NCBI GenBank assembly: GCA_030390025.1
Contig: CM059431.1
Coordinates: 110,300,001-110,364,000, forward strand
DNA length: 64,000 nt
Origin: Squalus acanthias
Taxonomy: Eukaryota
Direction of reading: 5' to 3'
Part shown: positions 5,657-61,447 of the stretch, in pieces
How the letters are laid out: each line of letters begins with the position of its first letter
Position numbering within the stretch: position 1 is the first letter of the stretch
Position numbers and translations under genes: made by a program
The notes under the pieces: model-generated
What the model saw: only the letters and a program-made list of their open reading frames with translations
Told to the model about the DNA's origin: nothing
Databases searched by the model: none

Positions 5657-6135
5657 ATTTGAGCATTTATATAAACCACAGCTTTTGTAGTTAAAACACT
5701 TGGAGACACATGGGTACAAACTCGCAACTGAAAAAATTAGGGTGTCACTCACAAACAGCAATACTGACAGAATAATCATGGGTGAAAAGATTTATTTTCA
5801 ACCATTGCAATCAAGCATTCCAAACAACTTATAATTTGCCTATCGTGGCCCACGTTCCTGACTTCACTTCTGCGAACCAATATTTTAACGTTCAACTTCA
5901 ATACCTTTTACATGACACTGACACAGGTACTGACACTAAAAGGTAACGTACAGGCTAAATGGGTATAATTGACTTTTAAATTGAATTGAAAAAAAAATTC
6001 CCCCCTATATTAATTTTTTTTTCATGCAAGACTTTAGAGGTGAACTTGCAAGCTGCAGCTATTGACCCACTTCTCTGCTTTATATAATATGGTGCCCCAA
6101 CGGCATGATTTTACAATCAACTTACACAATGGGTT

Positions 6136-6376
6136 AACAACAGAAAACGCTGGAAAAACTCAGCAGGCCAGGCAACATCCGTGGAGAGAGAAACAGAGTT
6201 AACGTTTCAGGTCGAAGACCCTTCGTCTAAAACGTCTGACGAAGAGTTCTGACGAAGGGTCTTCGACCTGAAACGTTAACTCTGTTTCTCTCTCCACGGA
6301 TGTTGCCTGGCCTGCTGAGATTTTCCAGCGTTTTCTGTTGTTATTTCAGTTTTCCAGCATCCGCAGTATTTTGCTA
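6136..6376 (+). mobile_element. Fold-back Penelope-like element, family B
   Basis: 14-bp TSD TTACACAATGGGTT (6122-6135, 6377-6390); inverted arms ~6136-6227 and ~6251-6342; a unique 3' tail; hammerhead core in the right arm. Confidence 0.8.
6243..6283 (+). ncRNA. Minimal type I hammerhead ribozyme motif
   Basis: AGAGTT-CTGACGA-A-GGGTC-ttc-GACCT-GAAAC-GTT-AACTCT: stem I of 6 bp, full catalytic core, stem II, and stem III reduced to the palindrome AACGTT. Confidence 0.75.
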
Positions 6377-9300
6377 TTACACAATGGGTTGGGACATTTC
6401 CCTTGTTCATACACTGAAGCAGGAAATAAGGAACAGTATGAAGGAAACTAGGATAATAGGAAAGAAAAAAAAATGTAAAACCAATGGAGACAGCAAACTA
6501 ATTAAGAACATTTTTCTAAAATAAAAATGGCACGCAGGTGTTGAAACGTTTGAATTTTATATGTAAAACTGAGGTACTGTCGACTTTAATGCTCTTGAAA
6601 TCCTGACATATCGAAAGAACTACAAGGACTGAATAGGGCTAGGGCTGAAAAGCAGTCAAGAAGGTGGTTTGGGGTTTTTAACATTATAGTGCAAATATAG
6701 CTGCTCAACTCCAGACAAAGCTCAATTTGTAAGTTTTGTCATTATTTGTGAAATAGTAAAACCCTTTAACTTGGAATTATAACGTGAAACTTTCATGGTG
6801 CCGAGTTTCTTTTCAACCGTAAGCTTGTATGGTCGTGCAGGATTTAACAGCTTTTCAGAGTTTGTTTCCAGTTTGTATTATTGGAATTGCCTGTCTCATT
6901 TTGGGAAGTGGGGACTCAAAACTAAACTTGATGAAGATAAGGGAATGAGCTAATGCGGTATGTTGCATCAGGTAATGGGAGACAGAGCCAGCGGTAGAAC
7001 AAGTATTTGAAAACCTGCATTTGTGTTGCTTTGAAGTGTTGAATTATGGTGGAGAGTGATTCACGTCAGGGTCGATATTACTGTACTATGGAAAGTAATT
7101 TCAGGTAAACGGGGTATTTCTCAGTTGTGTAACCCGGTCTGTCAGTGCAATACTGAACACACATAAATTTAGAATTGCCAGTCATTGCTTGTTGGAGCGG
7201 AGGACAATAAGCTGTCTGTGGTATGCACATAGAGCCAACTTCTTTGCTATTCATAATAGATTTTCTGTGTACATTTGGTGTGTGAGCGAGTACAAGAAAA
7301 TGACTCTCATGTAACTCTCTTACATTGAGAAGCTTTAAACACTTGCACAGTTTCCACATACTGGGGGTGAACAGGTTTGGATTTTTATTTTGTTAACTGG
7401 TACTAAGACGTACTGTTTTTGTCTACCTTGGCAGAGGTCCAAAACAAGTACAGATAGCTTACCTGTCGTACCTTTTTTTTAAATCTTCAGTCCAACCAAA
7501 TATATATCATTTCAGCTCAGCACACGGTGACTCGGAACAAACTTGTGTGGGGCTATGGTTTTTATTTTCACTAAGATGCTGAAAACGACCTGGTTTTGTG
7601 GGCAATTCTGCAAAAAAGCAATCTTCACCAGAGCACGGGGTGGGGGTGGGGGAAATCATCCTTTTTTATTGAGTCCTGTATCGCGTTTCGCCATCGCAAC
7701 TTAAAAGGACATTTTTTTCTCCCCCCCCCCCCCTCGTTTCCATCAGATTTATTCGCTGTCCTTTTTACCTTTATGACAAAGCTGCAGATTGCAAAAGAAA
7801 ATGCTGTTGTGTAGGTTTGAAAGGCATGTGTGGTCCTGCTGGCATGTTGATTGCATTCATTTGATCTGTGGCAACCAGAAAAACAGGGTGGAGGATCTGC
7901 CCTTCAACTCAAAGTAATTTTGAACTGAACCTTGCACAAAAAGGAGAGAACTGGTGTCTTTAAAGCAAAAACTAAAGTCTCTGATCACGAACATGAAGTT
8001 GTCAGTAACTGTCAGAATATGTGCCGCTTTTCAATCAATCAATATGGGGGGCGGCGGGGAGGGGGGGTGTGTGTGTGGGGGGGGCGGGTGCTGGGGGGAA
8101 AGAAAGACATTCAATAGAGACATTTTGTAGCGTCTGTTTCTTTCGAACTCAGTGATGTATTATCCTCAGTATAAAATCTAAGGTTGCTAAAACTATAGCT
8201 GGAGTTTTCAATTAAGAGGATTTGAAGACAAGTCATTTCTGGGAATCACTGTGTTGTCTCCATGTATAAGCCAGTTTGGTAGCAATTAAGGCTCTTAGTG
8301 CTCGTAAGCATTGGAAGATCTTTATCAAAGTACAGTATTGTGAGTCTTCTGTGGTGATCCGTGTTATTCATTGTATCGTGAAAAGGGCATTAAGGCAGTC
8401 GCTGGCAGTCTAAACAGTCTGCGTGCCACTGCTTTTGTCTCTGAAAGTCTTCAGACGTGTTTTTAGCTTTGGGATTGCCAGAATACTTGGTTTTATTTTT
8501 AAAAGGAGCTTCAGGCCCCTTCTGTCGAATTATCAGTGAATGCCGGACAGGAATTGATTGTTATGTAGAAGTCAGAAAAATACTGTGACGGTCTTCCTTG
8601 GCAGGTGCTCTTACGGCCTGAATCACAGACGCGACCCATAACTTTGGGGGTGTGGTGGTGGGGGGGGGGGGCGGGGGGGGTTAAAATCTAGTGAACAAGG
8701 TCAGCTGAATTTCATTGGAAACCCAAGTGCAGCTTTTCACATGGTGGGAGTGTATTTAAGGGAGCGGAATCTCACCACACGAGTCTTAACTAAAGACGTT
8801 CAGTGCAGTTTCTGATATATTGTAAAGGTTTGGTTCATGGAACCTTTTAAACTTTGCGAAACCTCTTAAAAGTGCTGGTGTAGCAAATGAAGAGAATGCG
8901 TGACAACTTAAGAGCTCGTGTGGTGATAGTTACATGCAGGTATGTTAAGTCAGCGGTCTTTAAGACGTGTTGTTAAGTGTCTGGCTTTTGCATTCCATCC
9001 TCTCCACATACAGAAAAGTAATAGTCTCACGTGACCTTTAAACATAATTCACCTGTCAGTAAAACCTTGGAATAGTGTGTTTGTCTTTCAACAAAAAAAT
9101 TTTAGTTCGGTGTTTGGTTGCAAGAGGAGAGAACCATGTCAAGTCATGAGTGATATTCTTTCGTGATTGTAACTCCACAGGAGGAGCAGGAGTCCTCCAG
9201 GCCCCCCGCAAGGGAAAGCATAGGCCCCCTCCTTGAGCGATATGGCCCTCCCCTCCCCTGCACTCACTGAATGCAGGAACCCCCGTGGGACGGCCTGGCA

Positions 9301-19827: not shown

Positions 19828-19960
19828 AATGATGAGGGGTCATAGATCTAAAACATTAACCCTAACTTCCTTTCTCCACAGATGCTGCCTGACTTGTTGA
19901 ATGCTTTTAGCATTTTCTGTTTTTATTTCAGATTTCCAGCATATGCAATATTTGGTCTTT
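19828..19960 (+). mobile_element. Degraded single arm of the family B Penelope-like element
   Basis: Resembles 6249-6376 (tgatgaggggtcatagatctaaaacattaac...ctccacagatgctgcctg...atttcagatttccagcat); hammerhead core decayed. Confidence 0.6.
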
Positions 19961-23368: not shown

Positions 23369-23571
23369 GGAGAAGTCGCACAACACCAGGTTATAGTCCA
23401 ACAGTTTTATTTGAAATCACAAGCTTTCAGAGCGCTGCTACTTCTTCACCTGACGAAGGAGCAGCGCTCCGAAAGCTTGTGATTTCAAATAAAAGCTGTT
23501 GGACTATAACCTGGTGTTGTGCGACTTCTCACATTTGTCCACCCCAGTCCAACACCGGCATCTCCACATCA
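23369..23571 (+). mobile_element. Fold-back Penelope-like element, family A, with a hammerhead motif at 23446-23482
   Basis: 11-bp TSD TACTTAAAGCC (23358-23368, 23572-23582); inverted arms; TCAC-CTGACGA-A-GGAGC-agc-GCTCC-GAAAG-CTT-GTGA. Confidence 0.8.
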
Positions 23572-24084
23572 TACTTAAAGCCTAGCGACAGTGATATTGT
23601 CTACCTGTGTTCATGACCTTAACTGCAATGTTAAGTTGGCTTAATGACTGTTTCCTTCAAACAAAATGAATTGGTCTCAATGCTAATGTAATTTTTAGTC
23701 CCATGCCATCTGTTTCGCAGTGAGGAGAGAAGTCGTTCTATAATTGAATTGAAATTTTCAAGACTGAGATCGAAACATTTTTGTTAGGTAAAGGTATAAA
23801 TGGGCTATGGATCAAAGGCGGGTTAATGGATTTGAGGTACAGATCAGCCATGACCTTATTGAATGGCGGAACGGGCTCGTGGGGCTGAATGGCTTACAGC
23901 TGTTCCGATGATAAAAATGCATTCAAAAGCGTTTTATTAGAAGTGCATTCAAAAGTGGTGGTGGAGTGACACTATGAAGTGGACGCAAGTTTTCTTTCTG
24001 TGCTTTCCGCATGAATTTGCCGATCCTAGCTGTGGGGCCATACAACATTGTCTGACCTCCTATGCTGCAGAATTCAGAAAGAGA

Positions 24085-32406: not shown

Positions 32407-32726
32407 AAAAGGAGGAGGTGTGACAAAATGCTGGTCATTTTTTTATTAAAGGTCGAGGTTCATGGTCCAACTTTTGTTTAGTGTTTTGGACATTATCTCC
32501 AGGTTGTGAGAACCAGTTATGTTATTGACTGTTTTTTTGTGTTTATTTCTATGAGTTTGTCATGAGGAATTGACACACACAGAGTTTGTAAAATAAATAA
32601 GTTTCTGTATTCAAAATATACATGGTTGGTGGTTGGAATTATTGGTGCCTTGGCCGGCTTAGGGGTTGCGTGCTGGGTTCATTGATGTTGTTAGCAATGG
32701 CAGAAGCCATTTCCACAGCAGGGGCC

Positions 32727-36235: not shown

Positions 36236-37358
36236 ATAATCAGTGTTAGAGATTTTGATATCGTTGACAGTCTTTTAGTAGATCATATGGAAGTTCAGTG
36301 CTCAGCATTATGAATCCCAGTTGCATTAATCATCAGTTAGCACAAATTACCCTGTCATTATTGATTGTCAAGATGTGGTCACTTTCAACAATTGCAGTTA
36401 ACTTTCGGAATGAATTTACTCAGGAGGAGGGAAATATTGCACCATGCCACAGCATACTTGATTCAGCCTCTGAATTCTAACCGCCCTAATTAATGGTTAC
36501 TCAATTGTTTTATATTTATTCAGCTGATTATCATTGCTCCCACACCACAGAGCCTTTAACTCATTACACTCAATTAGACACAATCAGACTTGTATTAATG
36601 CTTCTGAGCCGCACAAATACACATTTCAAGTGCCATGTAATCAGCTTGCAAGCTTTAATTGTGTTAATGCACTCTGAATTTTGAGTAATTTACACACAGC
36701 CCTGTTATATGTCTCATAACTCATTGTACTTATGATTCATTTGACAGAGGGCAGCATATATTGAGTGCAGCTAAGTGAATTACTAGCAACTGAGAGGCTT
36801 AAATTACATCATAAACTACAAAAGCAAATTTGAGTAGTTTGTATTTTGTCATCCGAACCCCAGGATTACATTACCACCTAAATTCACTTACAATTTTCCT
36901 CCTAATGCAGTGAATTTTCTTTTAAAATTGCGTTGATTAGCTACTGAGTGATGCAGTGTGTTTGCAGATTGTCTTTTCTCCTCTGGAGCCTGGGTTTCAA
37001 TACAGCCCGAACTGACGGTGGATAAAAGTCTTCCCCTATGTTGGACGTCGAGGTGAACTGTAAAATGAGCTGTTGTCTCAAGCCAGCTTTTGGTGGACAC
37101 GGTGCACAGCACAAAGATTCTCATTGCCAAGTTCACCCGGGCCTTAAAGAGGGGAGTGAGGGGAGTGGAAATGTTACATTGCAGTGGGAAGTGCTTTTCT
37201 GAGGTTGAGGTTATGGCACATTGTAGCAGTGAGGTGGAGGCTGTTTATCTCTGTCTGTCTGCCTTGTTCCTGATGCGGAGATGCCGGTGTTGGACTGGGG
37301 TGGACAAAAGTGAGAAGTCGCACAACACCAGGTTATAGTCCAACAGTTTTATTTGAAA

Positions 37359-37396
37359 TCACAAGCTTTCGGAGCGACCGCTCCTTCGTCAGGTGA
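37359..37396 (-). ncRNA. Minimal hammerhead ribozyme motif
   Basis: Reverse strand: TCAC-CTGACGA-A-GGAGC-ggtc-GCTCC-GAAAG-CTT-GTGA. Confidence 0.72.
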
Positions 37397-37419
37397 AGTA
37401 AAGGAATACCTCCTTTACT

Positions 37420-37457
37420 TCACCTGACGAAGGAGCGGTCGCTCCGAAAGCTTGTGA
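37420..37457 (+). ncRNA. Minimal hammerhead ribozyme motif
   Basis: TCAC-CTGACGA-A-GGAGC-ggtc-GCTCC-GAAAG-CTT-GTGA. Confidence 0.72.
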
Positions 37458-38004
37458 TTTCAAATAAAACTGTTGGACTATAACCTGGTGTTGTGCGACT
37501 TCTCACTTTTGCCTTGTTCCTGACCAGCGAGTGCTTCGTGATGACACCGGTTTCCAAAATGTAAATGGTTCCATGCTCCAGTCTATCAGGTGGTGAGCAG
37601 AAAATAAAGTATTTTGTATTCTTCTTCGACGAAAATGCGTTCTGATATTTGAAAGTGCTATATAAGATTTATTTCCACAAGAGGTAGGAGGAAAATTCAC
37701 TATCACTATACACATATAGAGCAAGCAATTTGTTAAGTGATTTATTGCTCAGATCTGCTGAGAATCCAACAGTTTCACTGCCTTTGGGACTTTTTATGCG
37801 AAATTGTGGGATTCGGGTTCATATCTGTGCTTCTGGAAGTACAGGCACATGTTATAGTGATTACCACACTCCACTTGGAATTTCACTTCCTAAAAGAAGA
37901 TGAGCAAGTTGGTCAGGCAGGATTCCTCTTCTGAATCCATGCTGGCTGCTGTTTACTAAGTTGTTATTGTTCAAAAGAATCTTCCAAGTTTATTCCTGAT
38001 AATA

Positions 38005-41431: not shown

Positions 41432-42819
41432 GGCCCGGATTTTGCAGTTAGCGGCGAACGAACGGCGCTCGCCGTTCATTACGTTTACAGCTGCCCACAG
41501 ACTTTTGGTGGGCATCTTACGGTCATCGGGAATCTGACACAGCACGGCACCCTCTACAGGGGATCTGGGACCTGTGTGAACAGGGCAAGCAACAGTCTAT
41601 CTCCTCAACCAATCAGACTGAAGAATCCTTACTGAGGACGCAGAGTCTAAACCAGGAAGTGTACGTGATTTTACATTCAATTAAATATTCTTACTTACTC
41701 TTCCTGGTTTAGACTCTGCAGCCGCGATTTTATCAATGGATGGGGGTTGGGTGCGGGTCAGGTGGTTTCCGGCTTCCAGTCCCGCCCCCAACTGCATCCG
41801 GCCCACAGATGTGATTTTACATTGATTGACCTTGTTAAGCCTGCCCTGCGGGCTTGCCGGCCAATTAAGAGGAAGCAGGGTCAGATGACATCATTTGATG
41901 ACGCGTCATCTGCCGGTTTCCTTAAAGGGACCACGCACAATCGTTTTTTGACAGTTGGTTTCTCAGTGTTTGACAGCATTGAGGTGCTGCAAACACTGAC
42001 AATCACTGCACAAAGGTGAGCTCTTGCACCCAGGCTCTCCAATGACTCCCTCCATAGGCTGGAATAGATGGCAGCTGCAGGTGAGGTGACAGAAGCGATC
42101 TGTCACTGGTGAGAGAGGTTCTCCCAATGAGGTGACACTGCACATGGATTTCAAAACTTGTAGCCTAAAGAAATATGTAAATGTATTAAAAATGCATTTC
42201 CCAACATTTTCTTGCCTCTGAGACTCACCAGCGCACCATTGGATCCTTCACACCACTTCTGCAGCTGTCATCAATCCAGAAACATTACAGCAGACTCACA
42301 ACACACCACACTTACCTGGCGTGGTGTCCGGACGTCGGGAAACCCGAGCCAGAAGCGTCAAAATTCAAAAAGAGCCTGTCAACTACTAGCAACTACCTGT
42401 TAATAGGCAGGTAATTGCCTTTAATCCTCTTCCCGCCGCTAGGTGTCGGGTCCATGCGCAACTCGGGGACCCGACACTTGGGAAAATTGTTAGAAGGCGG
42501 GTGGACGGCGGGATCGCAACCCGCCGTCAATCAAAACGATTTTAACCTTTGACCCGTCTCCAAACCCGCCCTCTGAGCGCTGGCAAAATCCAGCCCTGCG
42601 TGTCTCAGTAAGGATTCTTCAATCTGATTGGTTGAGGATTCACGCTGTTGCTTGCCCTGTTCACACAGGTCCCAGATCCCCTGTAGAGGGCGCCGCGCTG
42701 TGTCAGATTCGCGATGACCGTAAGATGCCGCTCAAAAGCCCACCAAAAGTCTGTGGGCAGCTGTAAGTGTAATGAACAGCGAGCGCCGTTCGTTCGCCGC
42801 TAACTGCAAAATCCGGGCC
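41432..42819. mobile_element. Fold-back Harbinger-type MITE (arms ~230 bp) with a nested insertion
   Basis: GGCCCGGATTTTGCAGTTAGCGGCGAACGAACGGCGCTC is mirrored at 42781-42819; the right arm is split at 41719/42597. Confidence 0.85.
41720..42596. mobile_element. Nested non-autonomous Harbinger-type element
   Basis: TGC duplicated at 41717-41719 and 42597-42599; termini AGCCGCGATTTT / AAAATCCAGCCC; internal block shared with 1-752 and 53684-54472. Confidence 0.75.
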
Positions 42820-43569
42820 AATCTGTTTAAGATTAGCCTCAGCACCCGTCATTGCATCACTCTCAAACTAATCATGATGTACAGCATGGCGAATAATTTG
42901 TACTTTCTTACTTGCAATCACTTAAATGGAATCTTTATGGTCGACTGTACCATCATGCCTTGGGTGTACTACACAAACAACTCTTGTATTTAACCTTTGG
43001 ACCAGTTAGCTTTGGTATGTATGTTTTGATAAAAGTCTGAAATTTTCTTTTCAAAGAGAATCACTGTAGGCATTAACTGACATCTTATTGGTCCAGGTGA
43101 TTTATGGGTAGGCAAGTAGGGTCATATCGAAGCAAGGTCAATAAAGGCAGATGTCAGAAAGTTGCTCAAAATATTTACTGTCTTTTCTTAAACTCACAGC
43201 CTAGTTTTCTCTCATTTGCCCATTGCCTTTGCCAGTCCATGGACCCTAATCGTTAAAGAATGCAAGTTTTGAAGGGAACTCCAAATTTTACCATTATAAA
43301 CGATATACATGTAATGCCTGAATGATTATTAACAACCTGAGCCTTTTGTGTTCTGTTAATGGTCAAAAACTATAGTAATAATTTGAATTTCTCCATGTAA
43401 TTAGACAACATTTTAATGTCAGGAAGTAAAATAAACCTGTAACATTTAATCTTGTTTTCACTCACTAGTCACCTAATCCTGAGCCTGACAATGTGGAGGA
43501 GTTGAGCTAACATCCATAATGACACAAATCATTAATCCAAGGTCTTTCAGTTTTAATCAACTTTAACTT

Positions 43570-45996
43570 TGTGTGTCTTTGTGTGCCTATGTGTGTGTGT
43601 GTCTGTGTGTGTGTGTCTGTGTGTGTGTGTGTCTGTGTGTGTGTGTGTGTGTGTGCCTGTGTGTGTGTGTCTGTGTGTGTGTGTCTGTGTGTGTGTGTGT
43701 GTCTGCGTGTGTGTGTGTGTGTGTCTGCGTGTGTCTGTGTGTGTGTGTGTGTCTGTGTCTGTGTCTGTGTGTGTGTGTGTCTGTGTGTGTGTTTGTGTCT
43801 GTGTGTGTGTGTGTCTGTGTGTATGTGTGTGTGCCTGTGTGTGTGTGTCTGTGTGTGTGTGTGTGTGTGTCTGTGTGTGTGTCTGTGTGTGTGTGTGTGT
43901 GTCTGCATGTGTGTGTGTGTGTGTCTGTGTGTCTGCGTGTGTCTGTGTGTGTGTGTGTCTGTGTGTGTGTGTGTGTGTCTGTGTGTGTGTGTCTGTGTGT
44001 GTGTGTGTGTGTGTGTCTGTGTGTGTGTGTGTGTGTGTCTGCGTGTGTCTGTGTGTGTGTGTGTGTCTGTGTGTGTCTGTGTGCATGTGTGTGTGTGTGT
44101 CTGTGTGTGTGTGTGTGTGTCTCTGTGTGCGTGTGTGTCTGTGTCTGTGTGTGTGTGTGTGTCTGTGTGTGTGTGTCTCTGTGTGTGTGTGTGTCTGTGT
44201 GCATGTGTGTGTGTGTCTGTGTGTGTCTGTGTGTGTGTCTGTGTGTGTGTGTCTGTCTGTGAGTGTGTGTCTGTGTGTGTCTGTCTGTGAGTGTGTGTCT
44301 GTGCGTGTCTGTCTGTGTCTGTGTGTCATTCTGTGTGCGTCTGTGTGTGTGTGCGTGTGTCTGTGTGTGTCTGTCTGTGTCTGTGTGTCATTCTGTGTGC
44401 ATCTGTGTGTGTGCGTGTGTGTCTGTGTGTGTCTGTCTGTGTCTGTGTGTCATTCTGTGTGCGTCTGTGTGTGTGTGCGTGTGTCTGTGTGTGTGAGTGT
44501 GTGTCAGTGTGTGTGTGTGTGTGTGTCTGTCTGTGAGTGTGTGTGTGTGTGTGTGTCTGTGTGCGTGTGTGTCTGTGTGTGTGTGTCTGTGTGTGTGTCT
44601 GTGTGTGTGTGTGTCTGTGTGTGTGTCTGTGTGTGTGTGTCTGTGTGTGTGTGTGTGTCTGTGTGTGTGTCTGTGTGTGTGTGTGTTTCTGTGTGTGTGT
44701 GTCTGTGTCTGTGTGTGTGTGTGTTTCTGTGTGTGTGTGTGTGTGTGTGTCTGTGTGTGTGTGTGTCTGTGTGTCTGTCTGTGTGTGTGTGTCTGTCCGT
44801 GTGTGTGTGTGTCTGTGTGCCTGTCTATCTGTGTGTGTGAGTGTGTGTGTGTGTGTCTGTCCGTGTGTGTGTGTGTGTCTGTCTGTGTGTGTGTGTGTCT
44901 GTCTGTGTGTGTGCGTGTGTGTGTCTGTGTGTGTCTGTGTGTGTCTCTGTGTGTGTGTGTGTGTGTGTGTATGTGTGTGTGTCTGTGTGTGTGTGTGTGT
45001 CTGTCTGTCTGTGTGTGTCTGTGTGTGTCTGTGTGTGTGTGTGTGTGTCTGTGTGTGTGTGTGTGTGTCTGTCTGTGTGTGTCTGTGTGTGTCTCTGTGT
45101 GTGTGTGTCTGTGTGCCTGTCTATCTGTGTGTGTGAGTGTGTGTGTGTGTGTCTGTCCGTGTGTGTGTGTGTGTCTGTCTGTGTGTGTGTGTGTCTGTCT
45201 GTGTGTGTGTGTGTGTGTCTGTCTGTGTCTGTGTGTCTGTCTGTGTGTGTGTGTGTGTGTGTCTGTCTGTGTGCGTGTGTGTGTCTGTTTGTGTGTGTGT
45301 GTCTGTGTGTGTGTGTGTCTGTGTGTGTGTCTGTGTGCCTGTCTATCTGTGTGTGTGTGTGGGTGTGTGTGTGTGCGTGTGTCTGTCCGTGTGTGAGTGT
45401 GTGTCTGTGTCTGTGTGTGTGTGTGTGTCTGTGTGTGCGTGTGTCTGTGTGTGTGTGTGTGCGTGTGTCTGTGTGTGTGTGTGTGTGTGTGTCTGTCTGT
45501 GAGTGTGTCTGTGTGTGTGTCTGTGTGTGTGTGTGTGTCTGTGTGTGTGTGTGTCTGTTAGTGTGTTTCTGTGTGTGTGTGTGTCTGTGTGTGTGTGTGT
45601 GTGTGTCTGTGTGTGTGTCTGTGTGTGTGTCTGTGTTTGTGTGTGTGTCTGTGTGTGTGTGTGTCTGTGTGTGTGTGTGTCTGTGAGTGTGTTCTGTGTG
45701 TGTGTGTGTGTGTGTGTGTGTCTGTGTGTGTGTGTGTGTGTGTGTGTCTGTGTGTGTGAGTGTGTGTGTGTGTGTGTCTGTGTGTGTGAGTGTGTGTGTG
45801 TGTGTGTCTGTGTGTGTGTGTGTCTGTGTCTGTGTGTGTGTGTGTGTGTGTCTGTGTGTGTGAGTGTGTGTGTGTCTGTGTGTGTGAGTGTGTGTCTGTG
45901 AGTGTGTGTGTGTGTGTCTGTGAGTGTGTGTGTGTGTCTGTGAGTGTGTCTGTGTGTGTGTCTGTGAGTGTGTGTGTGTGTCTGTTAGTGTGTTTC

Positions 45997-46032
<36 letters not shown>

Positions 46033-46674
46033 TGTGTGTGTGTGTGTGTCTGTGTGTGTGTGTGTGTGTGCCTGTGTGTGTGTGTCTGTCTGTGTGTGTG
46101 TGTGTGTCTGTCTGTGTGTGTGTCTGTGTGTGTGTGTGTGTCTGTGTGCCTGTCTATCTGTGTGTGTGAGTGTGTCTATGTGTGTGTCTGTCTGTCTGTG
46201 AGTGTGTCTGTGTGTGTGTCTGTGTGTGTGTTTCTGTGTGTGTGTGTGTGTGATATGTGTGTCTGTGTGTGCGTCTGTATGTGCGTCTGTATGTGTGTTT
46301 GTGTGCCTGTGTGTGTGTGTGTGTCTGTGTGTGTATGCGTGTCTGTGTGTGTGCCTGTGTGTGTGTCTGTCTGTGTGTGTGTGTGTGTGTGTGTCTGTGT
46401 GTCTGTGTTTGTGTGTGTTTGTCTGTGTGTCTGTCTGTGTGTGTCTATGTGTGTGTGTCTGTGTGTGTCTGTGTGTGTGTCTGTGTGTGTGTGTGTGTGT
46501 CTGTGTGTGTGTCTGTGTGTGTGTCTGTGTGTGTGTCTGTGTGTGTGTGTGTCTGTGTGTGTGTGTCTGTGTGTGTGTGTCTGTGTGTGTCTGTGTGTGT
46601 GTCTGTGTGTGTGTGTGTCTGTGTGTGTGTGTGTGTGTCTGTGTGTGTGTGTCTGTGTGTGTGTGTGTGTCTGT

Positions 46675-46706
<32 letters not shown>

Positions 46707-47649
46707 CTGTGTGTGTGTCTGTATGTGCGTGTCTGTGTGTGTGTGTGTCTGTGTGTCTGTGTGTGTCTGTGTGTGTGTGTGTGTGTGTCTGTGTGTGTGT
46801 CTGTGTGTGTGTCTGTGTGTGTGTGTCTGTGTGTGTGTCTGTGTGTCTGTCTGTGTGTGTGTGTGTGTGTCTGTCTGTGTCTGTGTGTCTGTCTGTGTGT
46901 GTGTGTGTGTGTGTCTGTCTGTGTGCGTGTGTGTGTCTGTTTGTGTGTGTGTGTCTGTGTGTGTGTGTGTCTGTGTGTGTGTCTGTGTGCCCGTCTATCT
47001 GTGAGTGTGTGTGGGTGTGTGTGTGTGCGTGTGTCTGTCCGTGTGTGAGTGTGTGTCTGTGTCTGTGTGTGTGTGTGTGTCTGTGTGTGCGTGTGTCTGT
47101 GTGTGTGTGTGTGCGTGTGTCTGTGTGTGTGTGTGTGTGTGTGTCTGTCTGTGAGTGTGTCTGTGTGTGTGTCTGTGTGTGTGTGTGTGTCTGTGTGTGT
47201 GTGTGTCTGTTAGTGTGTTTCTGTGTGTGTGTGTGTCTGTGTGTGTGTGTGTGTGTGTCTGTGTGTGTGTCTGTGTGTGTGTCTGTGTTTGTGTGTGTGT
47301 CTGTGTGTGTGTGTGTCTGTGTGTGTGTGTGTCTGTTAGTGTGTTTCTGTGTGTGTGTGTGTGTGTGTCTGTGTCTGTGTGTGTGTGTGTGTGTGTGTGT
47401 CTGTGTGTGTGAGTGTGTGTGTGTGTGTGTCTGTGTGTGTGAGTGTGTGTGTGTGTGTGTCTGTGTGTGTGTGTGTCTGTGTCTGTGTGTGTGTGTGTGT
47501 GTGTCTGTGTGTGTGAGTGTGTGTGTGTCTGTGTGTGTGAGTGTGTGTCTGTGAGTGTGTGTGTGTGTGTCTGTGAGTGTGTGTGTGTGTCTGTGAGTGT
47601 GTCTGTGTGTGTGTCTGTGAGTGTGTGTGTGTGTCTGTTAGTGTGTTTC

Positions 47650-47685
<36 letters not shown>

Positions 47686-48020
47686 TGTGTGTGTGTGTGT
47701 GTCTGTGTGTGTGTGTGTGTGTGCCTGTGTGTGTGTGTCTGTCTGTGTGTGTGTGTGTGTCTGTCTGTGTGTGTGTCTGTGTGTGTGTGTGTGTCTGTGT
47801 GCCTGTCTATCTGTGTGTGTGAGTGTGTCTATGTGTGTGTCTGTCTGTCTGTGAGTGTGTCTGTGTGTGTGTCTGTGTGTGTGTTTCTGTGTGTGTGTGT
47901 GTGTGATATGTGTGTCTGTGTGTGCGTCTGTATGTGCGTCTGTATGTGTGTTTGTGTGCCTGTGTGTGTGTGTGTGTCTGTGTGTGTATGCGTGTCTGTG
48001 TGTGTGCCTGTGTGTGTGTC

Positions 48021-48051
<31 letters not shown>

Positions 48052-48343
48052 CTGTGTGTCTGTGTTTGTGTGTGTTTGTCTGTGTGTCTGTCTGTGTGTG
48101 TCTATGTGTGTGTGTCTGTGTGTGTCTGTGTGTGTGTCTGTGTGTGTGTGTGTGTGTCTGTGTGTGTGTCTGTGTGTGTCTGTGTGTGTGTCTGTGTGTG
48201 TGTCTGTGTGTGTGTGTGTCTGTGTGTGTGTGTCTGTGTGTGTGTGTCTGTGTGTGTCTGTGTGTGTGTCTGTGTGTGTGTGTGTCTGTGTGTGTGTGTG
48301 TGTGTGTCTGTGTGTGTGTGTCTGTGTGTGTGTGTGTGTCTGT

Positions 48344-48375
<32 letters not shown>

Positions 48376-48676
48376 CTGTGTGTGTGTCTGTATGTGCGTG
48401 TCTGTGTGTGTGTGTGTCTGTGTGTCTGTGTGTGTCTGTGTGTGTGTGTGTGTGTGTCTGTGTGTGTGTCTGTGTGTGTGTCTGTGTGTGTGTGTCTGTG
48501 TGTGTGTCTGTGTGTGTGTGTCTGTGTGTGTGTGTGTCTGTGTGTGTGTGTCTGTGTGTGTGTCTGTGTGTGTGTCTGTGTGTGTGTGTCTGTGTGTGTG
48601 TCTGTGTGTGTGTGTCTGTGTGTGTGTGTCTGTGTGTGTGTGTCTGTGTGTGTGTGTGTGTCTGTGTGTGTGTGTG
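43570..48676. repeat. ~5.1-kb compound (TG)n/(TGTC) microsatellite array
   Basis: Directly visible. Confidence 0.98.
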
Positions 48677-48832
48677 TTCCTACCTCTTTGACCAAGCATT
48701 TGGTCATCTGTCCTGATATCTCCTTCTGTGGCTCGGTGTCAAAAATGTTTTTATTGATATTGAGTTTGTTAAGTGCCTTGGGATATTTTGCTACATAAAT
48801 GCACTATATAAATGTAAGTTGTTGTTGTTGTT
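48677..48832 (+). mobile_element. L2-type LINE 3' terminal fragment
   Basis: cctacctctttgaccaagcatttggtca...tataaatgtaagttgttgttgttg. Confidence 0.75.
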
Positions 48833-54475: not shown

Positions 54476-54965
54476 GGTGTTGGAGCTGCCGTCTTTCAGA
54501 TGAGAGGTTAAACCGAGGCCCCCATCCGCTCTCTCAGGTGGACGCAAAAGATCCCATGGCACTATTCCAAAGAAGAGCGGGGGATTTCTGCCCGGTTTCC
54601 TGGCCAATGTTTCCCATAATTTTTTGGGGGGGCCATGTGGCCCATTCAAAAGTCTGCGCGTGCGCACTTTTTTTCCAATTTAAAAGCTGGCTCACCGGCT
54701 GCGTGGGACTCCTGGAGCACTACGCAGCTGTGCAGCTTAAAGGTCCTGTACAATATTTACCCCTCAACCAACATCGCTAAAAATACAGATTATCTGGCCA
54801 TTATCACATTGCTGTTTGTAGGAGCTTGCTGAGCGCAAATTGGCTGCTGCGTTTCCCACATTGTATCAGTGACTGCACTTCAAAAGTGCTTTATTGGCTG
54901 TAAAGCACTTTTTGACATCCTGAGGTTGTGAAAGTCGCTATATAAATGCAAGTCTTTCTTCTTCT
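54476..54965 (+). mobile_element. Deu-domain SINE interrupted by an hAT-type MITE (54605-54742)
   Basis: The Deu core is split at tcctggc|caatattt; the insert begins CAATGTTTCC and resembles 10361-10538. Confidence 0.7.
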
Positions 54966-55308
54966 TTCTTTCACTTCTGCTCTTTACCGTCTCCAGGTTT
55001 TATTTTCACTGTTTTCATTCTGCTCTTATATGAGTTGTTACTTTGTTGAACGAGGCATTAAACTGACATCCCGTCCGCCTGTTCCGGAGGTTCGGGCGGA
55101 TGTTAAAGATTCTGTGGCGCTTTTCAAAGGGGAGCAGGGAACCCTCCCAGTGTAATGGCCAACATTCCTGCCTCAACCAATGCCACCAAGAAACAGCATA
55201 TTGCTGTCAGTGGGCCATCGTTGATGCAGAATATCTGCATATCAACAATGAGTGCACTTCCAAAGTAATTCATTGCATGAGGCGTTTTGAGATGTTTAAT
55301 TGTGATAA

Positions 55309-55755
55309 AAATGAGAAGTCACACAACACCAGGTTATAGTCCAACAGATTTATTTAAAATTACAAGCTTTCGGAGCTATCGCCCCTTCCTCAGGTAAAGT
55401 TACAATGAGTGAATCTACAAAAGTTCACAGAATATAAACACAGAAACTGCAGAGATACAATCTTTCAGGGAAGGTGTCCTTACATCAAAGACACACCAAG
55501 AGCACAGCCAAGACAATGAGATGTGTCCCAGGGGGTCCAACGTGTCAAATCCTGCTGTCTGAAAGATTGTATCTCTGCAGTTTCTGTGTTTATATTCTGT
55601 GAACTTTTGTAGATTCACTCATTGTAACTTTACCTGAGGAAGGGGCGATAGCTCCGAAAGCTTGTAATTTTAAATAAATCTGTTGGACAAAAACCTGGTG
55701 TTGTGCGACTTCTCATTTTTGTCCACCCCAGTCCAACACCGGCATCTCCACATCA
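55309..55755 (+). mobile_element. Fold-back Penelope-like element, family A variant, with hammerhead motifs at 55360-55397 (-) and 55630-55667 (+)
   Basis: 12-bp TSD TAATTGTGATAA (55297-55308, 55756-55767); ~160-bp arms around a ~90-bp spacer; TTAC-CTGAGGA-A-GGGGC-gata-GCTCC-GAAAG-CTT-GTAA. Confidence 0.85.
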
Positions 55756-56389
55756 TAATTGTGATAAGGCACTATATGACTGCAAGTATTATTTTGCCAG
55801 ACATTTTTATTTTAAAATTTGTTTCACCACATTTCTTAATATTTTACTTTCAAAATATTACTTGTGCCGCCATGAACCTGGCCTCCATTCCTTAGCTGGG
55901 ATCAATATTTGGTCCCAAATTGGCTAAAAGCCATCTCCAACGGCTGATTTTTCAGCAATCAAGTTTTAGCACATTAAGAATGACTGAGTTATGTCACTGA
56001 AGAGAGCAGGTCGATAATACGATGCTCATTTTGGAACAACCCATGTCTGTTCAATAAGCACTTGGTGGCCTTTGCAAAATGGGTACCACAAAAAAGCCGT
56101 CATCCTGTCAGTGGTGCTCAAGGGGTTAAACGGACTTTATCTTCATGGAACAGTGCTTGGCAACTATTTTTCTCTGTTCTTTACAGACACAGAATGGGGC
56201 TGATTTTCCCCTTCAGGTGTAAATGGGTTTGCATTGTTTAAACACCCAGCTAAATTTTAAATGCTATGAGAACTTGGTTTCTGGACAAACTCTATTTGCA
56301 TAATTATTCAGAGTTCCAGGTGCAAATGCAAGTGGGCCGAGGGATAATACGACTAAAAGGAGAGAAAATCGTGCATAAATCAAATTTAA

Positions 56390-56774
56390 AGGAGGCTGAG
56401 GGGAGACTTGATTGAGGTGTATAAAATTATGAGGGGGCTAGATGCAGTGGATAGGAAGGACCTATTTCCCCTTGCAGCGAGGTCAATAACCAGGGGGCAT
56501 AGATTTAAAGTACTGGGTAGAAGGGTTAGAGGGGAGTTGAGGAGAACGTTTTTCACCCAGAGGGTGGTGGGGGTCTGGAACGCACTGCCTGAAAGGGTGG
56601 TAGAGGCAGAAACCCTCATCACATTTAAAAAGTACTTGGATAGGCGCTTGAAGTGCCGTAACCTACAGGGCTACGGACCAAGAGCTGGAAAGTGGGATTA
56701 GGCTGGATAGCTCTTTTTTGGCCAGCACAGACATGATGGGTCGAATGGCCTCCTTCTGAGCTGTAAATTTCTAT
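56390..56774 (+). mobile_element. CR1-type LINE 3' fragment; its tail resumes at 61011
   Basis: LIEVYKIMRGLDAVD...TRGHRFKV...FFTQRVVGVWNALP; tail ttctat|gattctatgat is split by Harbinger copy 2. Confidence 0.85.
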
Positions 56775-57288
56775 GGGGTAAAAATTCAGTTGGTTGCGCC
56801 TCCCGTTAGCGCCTTAAAAGGGCGCTAATGGGGCGTTAAGGCGCTAATGCCCGGGCGCAGCGCTGTTTGCGCCGCTCGAGAACTTAACTTGAGATTGTGC
56901 GGCGGCGCTAAAACTTACCGCTGCGACCACCTGCGCGCGCAGATTGTGACGTCATTCCGTGGTGCAACGCCCTTGGGGCGCCCCGGAGCGGAAATTGAGT
57001 GGCGCCCCCTGCCTTACCGCCTGGCGCTTCCAACGACCGGAAGACTGGAACGTTATCAATCGGTGTGGGGCTGGGGGGGGCGCTATTTAAAGGGGGCCTC
57101 TTCCTGTCTTTTTCTGTGGTCGACATTTATGCACCACTCGTTCTGAGAGAGAGAGAGAGATTCGGAGAGAGAGAGAGAGAGAGACTTCTACATTGACTCA
57201 ACGCTTTGTGAGGTAGTTTTGCCTAGTTCATCCTAACTTTGCTGCTACTTTCGTTGCTGTACCTCATTACTTTTCTGGCAAAGAGAAT

Positions 57289-58449
57289 ATGGGGGCTGCA
57301 ATGATTGGGGGCGTCGTCCTGCTCCAGCTCAATCGGAGGATAGTGAGACGCAGACAGAGAGTGGCAATGATGGCCAGACGGAGGAGGGCCATCAGGCGCA
57401 TGTACAGGAGAGCTTACCCTCCCAGGGTATATCGTGAACAGCTCTCCTACATCCACATGTCCGAGGAGCTGTGTTTGCGAAGGCTGCGATTCAGCAAGGA
57501 GGTGGTCACTGAGCTCTGCCACCTGCTGCAGCCAGATCTGCAGCCTCAGCTGAGGTCCAGGACGTCTCTGTCGGTGGCAGTGAAGGTCACAGTGGCTTTG
57601 AACTTCTACGCCACTGGCTCATTCCAAGCTGCTGTTGGGGACCTCGCCAATATCTCCCAGTTTGCGGTACATCGCTGCATCCGGCAGGTCACCAATGCCC
57701 TCTTCACAAGGAGACGAGACTTCATCTCCTTCCCTATGACCCCAGACAAGCAGCATGACCGTGCTATGGGCTTTGCGAGGGTAGCGGGCTTCCCCATGGT
57801 GCAGGGCGCCATTGACTGCACGCATGTGGCTTTGCGTGCTCCGCGAGAGAATGCAGAGGAGTTCCGGAACAGAAAGGGGTTCCATTCCTTGAATGTGCAG
57901 TTGGTCTGTGACCACAGACAGGTGATTCTCGCTGTCAATGCCCACTATCCGGGCAGCTGCCACGATGCTTTCATCCTGCGCCAGAGTACTGTGGCAGAAA
58001 TTTTCGAGGCACCGCATCAGCCAGTTGGTTGGCTTCTGGGGGACAAGGGGTACGCATTGAGCACCTGGCTGATGACACCGCTCCGTGCGCCAAACACCCC
58101 TGCTGAGCTGCGGTACCAGGAAAGCCAACAAGCAACCAGGAACATTATTGAGCGCACAATCGGCGTGCTCAAACAACGATTCCGCTGTCTGGACCATTCC
58201 GGAGGAGCCCTGCAGTACTCGCCTGAGCAAGTTTCCAAATTCGTAGTGGTGTGCTGCATGTTGCACAACATGGCAATCCTCAGGACGCAGCCAATGCCAC
58301 CAGGCCTTGCTGCACCACAAGAGGAGGAGGAGGAAGAGGAGGAACAGGCCGAGGACGATGATCAGCAGCAGCACCAAGGCAGGAGGGCGGCCCACAATGG
58401 TCAAACTGCAAGGGCCGTCCGTCAACGACTAATAGCAAGCCGCTTCTAG
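57289..58449 (+). CDS. Harbinger (HARBI1-like) DDE transposase, 386 aa
   Basis: Intact ORF with GAIDCTH, GDKGY and IERTIGVLKQRFRCL. Confidence 0.95.
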   Translation: MGAAMIGGVVLLQLNRRIVRRRQRVAMMARRRRAIRRMYRRAYPPRVYREQLSYIHMSEELCLRRLRFSKEVVTELCHLLQPDLQPQLRSRTSLSVAVKVTVALNFYATGSFQAAVGDLANISQFAVHRCIRQVTNALFTRRRDFISFPMTPDKQHDRAMGFARVAGFPMVQGAIDCTHVALRAPRENAEEFRNRKGFHSLNVQLVCDHRQVILAVNAHYPGSCHDAFILRQSTVAEIFEAPHQPVGWLLGDKGYALSTWLMTPLRAPNTPAELRYQESQQATRNIIERTIGVLKQRFRCLDHSGGALQYSPEQVSKFVVVCCMLHNMAILRTQPMPPGLAAPQEEEEEEEEQAEDDDQQQHQGRRAAHNGQTARAVRQRLIASRF

Positions 58450-58743
58450 GGCCCCTGCCATTGCTACAAACACGAATCAACCCAGCACGCAACCCCTAAG
58501 CCGGCCAAGGCACCAATAATTCCAACCACCAGCCATGTATATTTTGAATACAGAAACTTATTTATTGTACAAACTCTGTGTGTGTCAATTCCTCATGACA
58601 AACTCATAGAAATAAACACAAAAAAACAGTCAATAACATAACTGGTTCTCACAACCTGGAGATAATGTCCAAAACACTAAACAAAAGTTGGGCCATGAAC
58701 CTCGGCCTTTAATAAAAAAATGACCAGCATTTTGGCACACCTC

Positions 58744-60653
58744 CTACTTTTTGCCCTTCGAGGGTGATCTCCTTCCCTTGCGCACTTCCCCCCTTCTAAC
58801 CCTACTGCTCCTCCGTAATGGGACCTCAGTGGCTGCAGCAAGGCTGGTGGAAGGCTGCTGCTTGTCAGACCCTGACACTGCAGATGCCCCTGAAGGACGG
58901 CCTCGACCACTTCTGGGCCTGGAGGGCCCGGCTGCAGACTGCACCAACTCTGCATGGGCGGCAGCAGTCTGTCCTACAGGCGGTGGCAAGTGCAGTGGAG
59001 AAGTGACAGTGTTGGCAGCAGGAATGCTGTCATCGTGAGAGAGGACAGCAACTCCCTGCTCGCCCGACACACTGGCACTCCCACGGGGCAGCACTTCAGC
59101 ATCCGGAGCAATTTGCCGGAGAACAGATTGCTGGCCTGCTGCGGCGCGGTGACAGCCCCGGGGACATGTGCACGAACCATCGAGGATGGCAGCAGTCAGT
59201 GCTCGCGTGGCCTCAATCTGAGTCTGCATGAGAGCAGTCTCAGATGGGTTCCTGGCAGCCAGTGACTGAATTGCAGCAGTAAGCTTTAGTGTGGCATCCG
59301 CCTGTGCTACAGCGAAGTGCTCCACACTCCTTGCCAGTGCCTCAATGCATTCGGGCACCCTTCCCACTGCACCCATGAGCTCAGTGTGCATGCCCACCGC
59401 CTGGCTGTTCATTTCTGCAATCAGCTGCTCCTCCTCTGCGTCCATTGCATTAGGAGTGTCTGGCATACTCTCCCTCTGGGGAGAAGGCTCCCGTTCTTCC
59501 CTCCCCCCCCCATGGCGTGGCTGCAGCCCGCTGGGTCCTGGAGCTTCACCATCATCAGCTCCTTCCCCCCTGCTCCCCCGTTCTTCCCTCCCCCCCCAAT
59601 GGCGTTGCTGCAGCCCGCTGGGTCCTGGAACTTCACCATCATCAGCCCCTTCCCCCCTGCTCCCCTCCGGGGAAGGCGTGTTCCCAGTGTGGCCATGGGC
59701 TTCCTCGGGAGAGGGTGGCACTGATGCTCCGGCTTCCTCTTCCTCCTCAGCTGCAGCATCACTCCCAGTGGCAGCTTCAGGGACCATCTCCTCAGCTGGT
59801 GAATCACCATCTGAAAGCAGGGAGGTACAAGAGTGGCTTTAGCGTGAGGACAGGGTGGCAGTAAGGGAGGAATAAGTGCAGCGAGTTAGCAAGTTGGATT
59901 GAAAGTGTCAAAGGCTGGTATTGTGAGGGACAAGTGGAAGGACAGAGGACAAAAAGGTGATGACCTTACCATTGCTGTCCACAACAGGGTCGGCGTCCCC
60001 AGTGGCGACGGGACCGATCACCCGGCTTGCCACAATCCTGTGGACGCGCTCCTCCAGATCGCTGAGGGGTTGCAGCTGAAGCCGCCCTCCACCCGTCCGT
60101 TGCTGCTGTCTCCGATTATGAGCCAGCTTAGCCTGCAAGAAAAAGGACAGCATCTGAGTCAATATGCAGCCATGGTCTTGCCTGATGTGCCTCCCATAGG
60201 TGAATAGCCCTTACAATATGCAGCCATGGTCTTGCCTGATGTGCCTCCCATAGGTGAATAGCCCTTACTGTATGCAAAGTGTGGAATGTGTGTGTGTGTT
60301 TGATGAAAGGGCCATAGGTGTTGCATGAGTGTTGTGCATTGGGGTTTTAAGACCCTCTGGCCATAGAGTGAGGTTGAGATGGAGGGATGGAGAGGTATTG
60401 AGAAAAAGCCACTCACCCTGACGACCCGAGTGAGGTCGTTGAACTTTTTGCGGCACTGAACATGGGTCCTGGGCACCATGCTCCTGGAGGAGACGCTCTG
60501 AGCCACCTCCCTCCACACTCTTCTGAACTCGCGTGGCAAAGGCCTCCTGCCACTCTCCGGGAACAGCATGCATCGTCTGCGCTCCACTGCGTCAACCAGA
60601 GCATCCAAGGCCCGCTCGGTGAAGCGATGAGCGCGTTCTCTCACCCTCTCCAT
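58744..60653 (-). CDS. Harbinger Myb/SANT-like protein, 3 exons (60653-60417, 60132-59970, 59810-58744), 488 aa
   Basis: Same exon 1 and 2 lengths (237, 163 nt) and splice sites as copy 1; frame open to the stop. Confidence 0.88.
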
Positions 60654-61447
60654 GCTTGGCAGCAAAATGGATTACAGGTCTCTCCAGACTGAGATTCAAG
60701 GCTGCAATGAGCAGGGTGTGGCTGGGGAGCAAGTGGCCCCCCCCGCTTTAAGAAGTGTCCGGCGCCAGTGTGTCTGTGTTCCCTCGCTAACTGGCAGCAG
60801 CTGCGCTGCGCTCGTGCGCTGAGGTAGCGCCTCACTCCTAGGCCTTTGCGCCTTAAGAGAGGTGTGCAGCGCCTAATTTAGCGCTCCACTCACCTCCCGG
60901 GGCGGTAAAAGTGAAGTTTCCTGTCAGTGCCGATAATTAGCGCCAGGCGCTAATATTTGCGCGCGGACGATATTTGCGCCCCAAATGGGGCGCGACCTAA
61001 TTTCTACCCCTATGATTCTATGATAAAGGGATGGGGACAATTAATTGGAAATGTCCCAAGGAGGGGGACAAACATTTAGAAAGCTTTTGGCAAGCATTAA
61101 TTCAGCATCTCAACCCATCAGGAACCAAGGCTGATGGGGCATGGGATTTAAAAGTGGCAGGCCAGGGAGAAGGGAAAGAGTCCCTCGGAGCAGACGAATG
61201 ACAGTGCTCTCATTGTGATGTGACCAGGGCACGGCGGTTTCTGGGAAGAGGAATCTCCAGCATTGTGCCTCTGGCTTTTCTTCTTTAGTTCCAAAAACAG
61301 GTTTACCAAACATTTTTTTTTGTGAAAAAAGTGTCGCTTTTTACTTATGGTGAGACTCCTATTTTAAAACAAAGCAGACACCATGCAGCTTCATCTGGAG
61401 AGGATAGTTACAAAATATACAATTGCTGTAGTCGATATACAATGTAT

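What the first reader, a model, noticed from the sequence alone, without database searches (positions are those of the whole stretch)
55309..55755. Covariation across copies supports a selected hammerhead structure
Seen: relative to the 23369 and 37274 copies, stem I changes compensatorily (TCAC/GTGA to TTAC/GTAA), the free core position changes (CUGACGA to CUGAGGA), stem II stays paired (GGAGC to GGGGC against GCTCC), and loop II differs in every copy (agc, ggtc, gata). The invariant core is untouched. Family B (6243-6283) has the same architecture with entirely different stems and a different palindrome (AACGTT). Inference: structure, not just sequence, is conserved. This copy also has longer arms and a ~90-bp unique spacer that could lead to the parent element.
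Basis: partly seen in the sequence, partly recalled or inferred. Interest (0 to 1): 0.7.

Follow-up and report, generated by a model that had tools for sequence, protein, structure and literature searches.

The report
Penelope retroelement stump with minimal hammerhead
This is a short, back-to-back double insertion of the end of a Penelope-like jumping gene, carrying a small self-cutting RNA motif whose shape is kept while its letters vary, which is real but is a pattern already described for these elements.

Summary
The described differences are all real. 55309-55756 is a 5'-truncated insertion built like a Penelope-like element (PLE): two outward-facing 160-nt arms, a 33-38-nt one-sided tail, and an 11-12-bp target-site duplication (TSD) inside an older repeat. 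Each arm carries a minimal type I hammerhead with all features of the published PLE min-HHR. Support for selection is modest: within family A there is one compensatory pair (about 0.1 by chance), but all six changes together spare the motif (about 0.003; one contrast). Most of the covariation comes from family B, which shows no similarity to A downstream of the ribozyme. This copy folds into one long hairpin with no hammerhead pairs, so selection most likely acted on parent RNAs. The spacer is not unique: similar sequence is deeply covered in runs of three organisms and joins the left arm, so it is family sequence. The parent ORF was not reached and cleavage was not tested. Covarying min-HHRs in PLE repeats were published in 2014, and the scan has noted the same elements before in this genome and in others.

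The parts
55297..55308 (+). Left copy of the target-site duplication (11 bp, 12 with a T shared with the element's end)
   Evidence: Exact 12-bp match to 55756-55767
55309..55468 (-). Left arm: tail-less inverted copy of the element's 3' end, with its 3' end at the left TSD
   Evidence: 157 of 160 nt identical to the right arm
55360..55397 (-). Minimal type I hammerhead of the left arm, identical to the right one; predicted cut after 55364
   Evidence: Descriptor hit with C3 at 55393
55469..55558 (-). 90-nt spacer: further upstream family sequence that continues the LEFT arm on the minus strand; probably non-coding
   Evidence: Listed contigs cross 55468/55469 in 4 of 4 runs, one with 72 nt and no difference. 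Only 29 nt of the left side were in the laid stretch, under the tool's 31-letter rule for bridging. Loose ends before 55561 repeat the spacer's reverse strand. Its one open frame has no credible relative.
55559..55561 (.). Copy-specific inversion joint with a 3-nt overlap (CTG)
   Evidence: Family contigs in 3 of 4 runs match through 55561 and then go on with other letters; none of the 32 listed pieces bridges 55558/55559, but 21365 pieces are not shown
55559..55718 (+). Right arm: second 5'-truncated copy of the same 3' end
55630..55667 (+). Minimal type I hammerhead: stem I 4 bp, CUGAGGA, extra A, stem II 5 bp (G10.1-C11.1), loop GAUA, GAAA, palindromic GC, UU; predicted cut after 55663
   Evidence: Descriptor hit; stems I and II pair at 0.88-1.0 in the isolated motif
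55719..55756 (+). One-sided AC-rich 3' tail (33-38 nt, depending on 5 nt shared with the TSD). It ends at the family's common 3' end, perhaps at the ORF's ATG
   Evidence: 139, 111 and 18 contigs in X1, X5 and X11 leave the stretch after 55756 with low agreement (0.37-0.43); all three consensus strings begin GACT, giving ATG with the last two letters
55756..55767 (+). Right copy of the target-site duplication
55243..55790 (+). Older dispersed repeat (SINE/LINE-tail-like; label recalled) interrupted by the insertion; its remnants are 55243-55308 and 55768-55790
   Evidence: The flanks joined with one TSD align across the junction to 38358-38451 (74%, E 6e-10) and 54867-54956
23369..23572 (+). 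Family A sister insertion: 11-bp TSD, tail of about 42 nt on the + arm, left arm cut inside stem II
37271..37511 (-). Family A sister insertion: 14-bp TSD, tail of 31-34 nt on the - arm, arms identical
6135..6377 (+). Family B insertion with the same layout: 14-bp TSD, tail of about 34 nt, left arm cut inside the core
19830..19953 (+). Decayed family B copy (77% identity) that has lost C3 and G12 and the helix III palindrome

Best explanation
A dead, 5'-truncated insertion of a Penelope-like retrotransposon. Shown: two outward-facing copies of the same 3' end, a one-sided tail, an 11-12-bp TSD inside an older repeat, a min-HHR motif in each arm, and high-copy relatives in three organisms. Inferred mechanism: the element's GIY-YIG/RT protein cut both target strands 11-12 nt apart and primed reverse transcription from both ends, once from the distal start (with tail) and once from the proximal start (without). 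Both cDNAs stopped early (198 and 250 nt) and were joined head to head over a 3-nt overlap. The hammerhead belongs to the parent's pseudo-LTR, where it would cut long tandem RNAs as a dimer through the AAGCUU palindrome, possibly with help from the protein. Purifying selection on transposing parent RNAs explains the structure-preserving differences between subfamilies. The inserted copy itself is probably inert, and it was copied from RNA not cut at this ribozyme.
For: All 4 of 4 well-preserved elements in the window have inverted arms, a 31-42-nt one-sided tail and an 11-14-bp TSD. This is the PLE pattern in PMC3846280 and PMC8557442 (passages). The empty site is continuous with another repeat. 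The motif has the four signature traits of PLE min-HHRs in PMC4209133. All six subfamily changes are compatible with the structure, P about 0.003, and both arms share them, so they most likely predate insertion. A further loose end in organism B combines the TTAC stem with N7=C and another loop, and a 4-nt insertion falls at loop II in all 4 runs. PAc extends both target strands, its tail lies between two RT starts, and it uses uncut RNA (PMC11167929). All 8 of 8 arms of the four elements extend 5' of the cut site.
Against: No PLE ORF was tied to family A or B: none was seen in the window, no genome is held, and the collection scans gave nothing usable. Rfam gave no hammerhead match up to E=1. 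Only one true compensatory change exists within family A, and it alone is not significant. Cleavage was not tested; published metazoan min-HHRs cut weakly, and PAc insertion in vitro does not need cleavage. Dual priming is inferred from layout; PMC3846280 proposes self-priming on an antisense template for inverted junctions.
Confidence: 0.87

Rival explanations
1. Same PLE origin, but the fold is kept as a binding or pausing signal for the element's protein (or the hammerhead rides along as a passenger), and self-cleavage is not what is selected.
For: PAc hammerhead mutants still insert in vitro and no RNA-seq reads end at its cut site. Naiad PLEs thrive without canonical HHRs. All 8 arms were copied from uncut RNA, and 6 of 8 arms stop within about 25 nt of the core.
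Against: The 11 catalytic core letters are identical in families A and B, while stems, loop, N7 and the palindrome differ. That is the pattern expected if catalysis is kept, and PAc's HHR does cut when protein is added.
Confidence: 0.2
2. The palindrome is a non-autonomous element (MITE- or retrozyme-like) that moves as a unit.
For: Short, high-copy, flanked by TSDs, with inverted ends. Non-LTR retrozymes are PLE-derived and occur in a chondrichthyan.
Against: Arm lengths, centres, tail side and TSD length differ in each element. The spacer/right-arm joint looks private, while the spacer/left-arm joint is shared. There is no head-to-tail tandem of hammerheads as retrozymes need, and the hairpin blocks the ribozyme.
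Confidence: 0.05
3. The covariation is chance drift between two subfamilies, with no selection on structure.
For: Only one independent contrast in family A. One compensatory pair arises 9-10% of the time and an untouched core 11% of the time. Both changes in the pair are transitions. The hammerhead is no better conserved than downstream DNA (6 of 38 against 4 of 88; Fisher p=0.065).
Against: The joint probability that all six changes spare the motif is about 0.003, or about 0.01 with loop II set aside. The same core sits within different stems in family B.
Confidence: 0.07
4. This copy is a host-adopted ribozyme or small-RNA hairpin under selection at this locus.
For: A near-perfect 160-bp hairpin (-298.8 kcal/mol) could feed dsRNA processing. 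Runs guessed to be RNA hold the family.
Against: The Rfam miRNA matches are all below gathering scores and reflect the palindromes. Hammerhead pairs have zero probability in the whole element. The hammerhead letters are the subfamily's, not private to this locus.
Confidence: 0.03

Closest known systems
Minimal hammerheads (min-HHR) of metazoan Penelope-like elements (Cervera and De la Pena 2014, PMC4209133; parts 1-2 of 4 of the main text read)
   Same: [quoted passage not shown]
   Different: Stem II is 5 bp (7-8 in the Schistosoma families). Sharks are not named in the parts read or in the 2 supplementary files searched (file 1 could not be searched). Density here is six intact motifs in 64 kb.
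Inverted-pLTR plus tail insertions of EN+ PLEs (Arkhipova et al. 2013, PMC3846280; Craig et al. 2021, PMC8557442; passages)
   Same: An inverted 5'-truncated copy, a 30-40-bp tail on one side, a TSD of about 8-10 bp, and a pLTR/tail that reaches into the ORF start.
   Different: Both copies here are stumps of 200-250 nt with no ORF; TSDs are slightly longer (11-14 bp); the clade (Poseidon or Neptune) was not determined.
PAc, Poseidon PLE of Anolis carolinensis (Frangieh et al. 2024, PMC11167929; parts 1-2 of 4 read)
   Same: AT-rich target, both strands primed, tail between two start sites in an AC-rich stem-loop, and an uncut hammerhead in the template.
   Different: In PAc the start codon lies at stem II and RT starts 111-118 nt into the ORF. 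Here the only candidate ATG is at the tail's end, about 90 nt past the hammerhead, and it rests on loose-end letters alone.
Non-LTR retrozymes (bioRxiv 10.64898/2026.07.22.740005; part 1 of 5 and passages)
   Same: Non-coding, PLE-derived, type I hammerhead; reported in one chondrichthyan.
   Different: Retrozymes are head-to-tail tandem repeats; this element is a head-to-head inverted pair with a TSD and a tail.

Membership tests
PLE minimal hammerhead (min-HHR) | Catalytic core CUGANGA / GAAA / UH in type I order | tested here: met
   6 hits, 0 in 200 shuffles
PLE minimal hammerhead (min-HHR) | Unpaired base between 9 and 10.1; G10.1-C11.1 | tested here: met
   Extra A55641 and G55642-C55655; family B has G-U at this pair
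PLE minimal hammerhead (min-HHR) | Palindromic 15.2-16.2 and no loop III (dimer type) | tested here: met
   AAGCUU in A, AACGUU in B
PLE minimal hammerhead (min-HHR) | Statistically significant covariation across family members | tested here: inconclusive
   One compensatory pair within A (P about 0.1), joint P about 0.003, three A sequences
PLE minimal hammerhead (min-HHR) | Self-cleavage as a dimer or with protein | not testable with these tools
   Needs a bench assay; only contigs were available and they cannot show RNA ends
Curated Rfam hammerhead families | Match to an Rfam hammerhead model | tested here: not met
   No hammerhead family among 11 matches up to E=1
EN+ Penelope-like element | Inverted 5'-truncated copy next to the element | tested here: met
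   4 of 4 well-preserved elements
EN+ Penelope-like element | 30-40-bp tail on one end | tested here: met
   33-38 nt here and 31-42 nt across the four elements; the family ends at 55756
EN+ Penelope-like element | Target-site duplication | tested here: met
   11-14 bp in 4 of 4; empty site continuous
EN+ Penelope-like element | Parent with an RT + GIY-YIG ORF joined to this repeat | tested here: inconclusive
   No such ORF seen in the window; spacer frame has no family or credible relative; no genome held
Non-LTR retrozyme | Head-to-tail tandem units, each with a hammerhead | tested here: not met
   The two hammerheads lie on opposite strands
MITE | Copies of uniform length and centre with a fixed-length TSD | tested here: not met
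   Arms of 65-160 nt, different centres, TSDs of 11-14 bp among the three family A copies

The most novel reading that the evidence does not exclude
The hammerhead region sets where reverse transcription stops. Six of 8 arms in the window end within about 25 nt of the core, though the RNA was uncut, and laid depth rises steeply at the motif's 5' edge in 4 of 4 runs. Either the folded (possibly dimeric) ribozyme stalls the PLE reverse transcriptase, or short RNAs starting just upstream of it are the templates. The tens of thousands or more stumps likely in this genome would then be a natural data set for two open questions: what PLE hammerheads are for, and whether inverted insertions come from priming at both target ends.
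Probability: 0.2. Interest if true: 0.5.

Novelty: new member of a known kind. Interest (0 to 1): 0.17.

Why it matters
As it stands it adds one more example to a described class: covarying min-HHRs in PLE repeats were reported in 2014. Its practical value is that it names what this 450-bp hairpin is, corrects the 'unique spacer' idea, and gives a probe (55469-55558, minus strand) for the subfamily's parent. The purpose of PLE hammerheads is still open (PMC11167929, PMC8557442), and a genome this rich in dated, TSD-bounded stumps would allow a well-powered covariation and end-point census.

Tried and rejected
Whole-genome search: no genome is held. Collection scans for more copies: family A 20-mer, 0 hits in metagenome and 0 in viral contigs; family B 22-mer, 0 in metagenome contigs; family A 21-mer, 1 hit in genome contigs, with no similarity beyond the pattern on inspection, rejected as chance. 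Rfam: 11 matches, ten miRNA families and one cis-regulatory family, all below gathering score. Table 3 lists no change at core positions, but it also omits differences that the window's own copies show (55631, 55638, 55666, 55671, 55706), so it was not used as evidence of invariance or covariation. A frequent T>C at 55630 could not be paired with its partner, because the partner change would fall below the 3% cut. Depth is not a copy number. X5, X6 and X11 give little or no cover of the 3' flank, so presence or absence of the insertion in other individuals could not be read. The spacer as the end of a PLE endonuclease (a resemblance recalled from memory): its 47-residue frame has 0 Pfam families, a best Atlas score of 0.75, and 2 phmmer hits that are tandem-repeat ORFs scoring by summed repeats; gaps of 1, 2, 5 and 12 nt among relatives also argue against coding. 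Folds downstream of the family A hammerhead were not better than shuffles (z -1.2 and -1.4; family B -3.8). The downstream comparison printed was out of register and was redone. The bacterial promoter scan is not relevant to this genome. Literature: no paper held all of 'Penelope', 'shark', 'inverted', 'hammerhead ribozyme'; 3 papers held 'Penelope', 'shark genome', 'repetitive elements', listing only; none of the 15 listed of 35 papers had 'twin priming'. These searches cover open-licence papers only, not Repbase or Dfam.

Full report
Observation. Stem I reads TTAC/GTAA at 55630-55667 and TCAC/GTGA in the copies at 23446 and 37420; N7 is G against C; stem II has a G-U in place of A-U; loop II is GATA, AGC or GGTC; the core is unchanged; family B at 6245-6281 has other stems and the palindrome AACGTT. 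A descriptor for minimal type I hammerheads finds 6 motifs in the window and none in 200 dinucleotide shuffles. Rfam has no hammerhead match here.

Anatomy. The element runs from 55309 to 55756 between two copies of an 11-12-bp duplication. With one copy removed, the flanks align across the junction to another repeat in the window (38358-38451, E 6e-10), so this is an insertion into an older repeat. It has a minus-strand arm (55309-55468) and a plus-strand arm (55559-55718) that differ at 3 of 160 sites, a 90-nt spacer, and a 33-38-nt tail on the plus arm only. The three other well-preserved elements (23369, 37271, 6135) share this plan, with TSDs of 11, 14 and 14 bp, tails of 31-42 nt, and different arm lengths and centres. 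Passages of PMC3846280 and PMC8557442 describe an inverted truncated copy, a 30-40-bp one-sided tail and a short TSD as typical of Penelope-like elements. That the genome is shark-like comes from my recall of its repeats and from earlier scan notes, not from a test.

Other copies. No genome is held and the collection scans gave no true copy. Of 24 listed runs I laid 4 on 55440-55900: 11590, 6477, 1976 and 1046 contigs from three organisms were laid. Summed depth in X1 is above a million over the hammerhead, the tail and the middle of the spacer, against 16-80 on the distal flank; this is not a copy number but shows a very abundant family. In 3 of 4 runs many contigs leave the stretch after 55756 with unlike flanks, which fixes the family's 3' end; their consensus begins GACT, which would make an ATG, a weak hint of the ORF start.

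The spacer. It is unique in the window but not in the genome. Listed contigs cross from the left arm into the spacer in all 4 runs (only 29 letters of the arm were in the stretch, short of the tool's 31-letter rule), loose ends before 55561 carry the spacer's reverse strand, and at the spacer's right end family contigs go on with other letters after a 3-nt overlap. The spacer is therefore the upstream continuation of the left arm. The element is a 250-nt copy and a 198-nt copy joined head to head. The spacer's one open frame has no Pfam family and no credible relative. It does not map to anything unrelated, but it was not tied to a PLE ORF either.

How strong is the covariation? The 55.6-kb and 37.4-kb motifs differ at 6 of 38 sites. 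With 6 random substitutions (two-thirds transitions, 2 million draws from each sequence), the core is spared in 11%, a compensatory pair arises in 9-10%, and the whole motif survives in 0.3%, or about 1% with loop II set aside. The single compensatory pair proves little; the joint pattern is fair evidence from one contrast. The four-sequence count is strong (6 of 9 pairs changed on both sides, 0 of 500 shuffles), but five of those pairs come from family B alone, which was chosen for fitting the motif and shows no similarity to A downstream. The motif changes at least as fast as the DNA after it (6 of 38 against 4 of 88, p=0.065), which fits the variability reported in PMC4209133. One search adds a further structure-compatible variant in organism B and a loop II insertion, but its table of differences is incomplete and cannot test pairs.

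Where selection acted. Both arms share all six differences, so these most likely came from the template RNA (conversion between arms is not excluded). In the inserted copy the arms pair with each other (-298.8 kcal/mol) and hammerhead pairs have probability 0.000 on either strand, against 0.88-1.0 for the isolated motif. Two of 8 arms are cut inside the motif, and the old B copy at 19830 has lost C3 and G12. Selection most plausibly acted on parent RNAs, and inserted copies decay.

Mechanism. Shown: layout, TSD, motif, family abundance. Inferred: priming at both ends of a staggered cut, from two start sites, with joining of two truncated cDNAs over a 3-nt overlap. The Anolis PLE protein extends both target strands and its tail lies between two RT starts; its hammerhead cuts only with protein and is not needed for insertion in vitro (PMC11167929). 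All 8 arms here extend 5' of the cut site, so their templates were uncut. PMC3846280 offers self-priming on antisense RNA as another route to such junctions. In tandem parent RNA the AAGCUU palindrome would supply helix III of a double hammerhead, as proposed in PMC4209133; this was not tested.

Comparison and verdict. The motif meets every sequence feature of the PLE min-HHR class, and the insertion meets the structural features of EN+ PLE insertions; the ORF link and cleavage remain untested. It is not a retrozyme array or a MITE by the features tested. PMC4209133 already reports covarying families and opposite-strand pairs. I found no paper on this shark-type family (one supplement of PMC4209133 could not be searched and may list it; repeat databases were not searched). 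The scan has noted the same kind of element before in this genome and in others; I formed my reading before seeing those notes and treat them as leads only. Verdict: real, a new member of a known kind, low interest. The one open lead is the clustering of arm ends at the hammerhead.

Noticed in passing
window 30227-34404 and 56770-61019: Two Harbinger-type transposon copies, 90-97% alike and in opposite orientation, each with a long DDE_Tnp_4 frame (Pfam E about 1e-38). The 60162-60671 frame matches Myb/SANT, and its counterpart lies at about 30323-31231. They look young.
   Followed up: partly
window 41429-42822: A 1.4-kb non-coding element with about 200-bp imperfect terminal inverted repeats (91%), an internal 80-nt hairpin at 41640-41719, and TA/AT-rich ends; probably a non-autonomous DNA transposon.
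   Followed up: no
window 3810-4881: Another element of about 1.07 kb with 73-nt inverted ends, 88% complementary.
   Followed up: no
window 43430-48700: A 5.3-kb complex (GT)/(GTCT) microsatellite with higher-order internal repeats and very strong strand skew.
   Followed up: no
window 6223-6257: The centre of the family B palindrome holds a tandem duplication of the core start (CTGACGAAG twice, 13 nt apart), suggesting template slippage at the hammerhead during insertion.
   Followed up: no
window 55689-55691: Two T>A changes two bases apart, private to the right arm (96-99.9% of laid depth reads T at each), creating an A5 run; perhaps one multi-base mutation or an RT slip.
   Followed up: partly
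window 55488-55551: Laid depth peaks over the middle of the spacer, above the 55552-55631 stretch nearer the hammerhead, in X1, X6 and X11 (not clearly in X5). It may be a block conserved across subfamilies, such as a promoter, but contig depth cannot rank parts.
   Followed up: no
window 55668-55669: A common TT>AA variant just after stem I (23% in X1, 35-36% in X5, 14% in X11, about 0% in X6) would add a fifth pair to stem I.
   Followed up: no
window 6284-6378: The region from the family B hammerhead to the tail folds better than all 200 shuffles (z -3.8), with the tail pairing back on the arm; a candidate for the stem-loop where RT starts. Family A's counterpart was not significant.
   Followed up: partly
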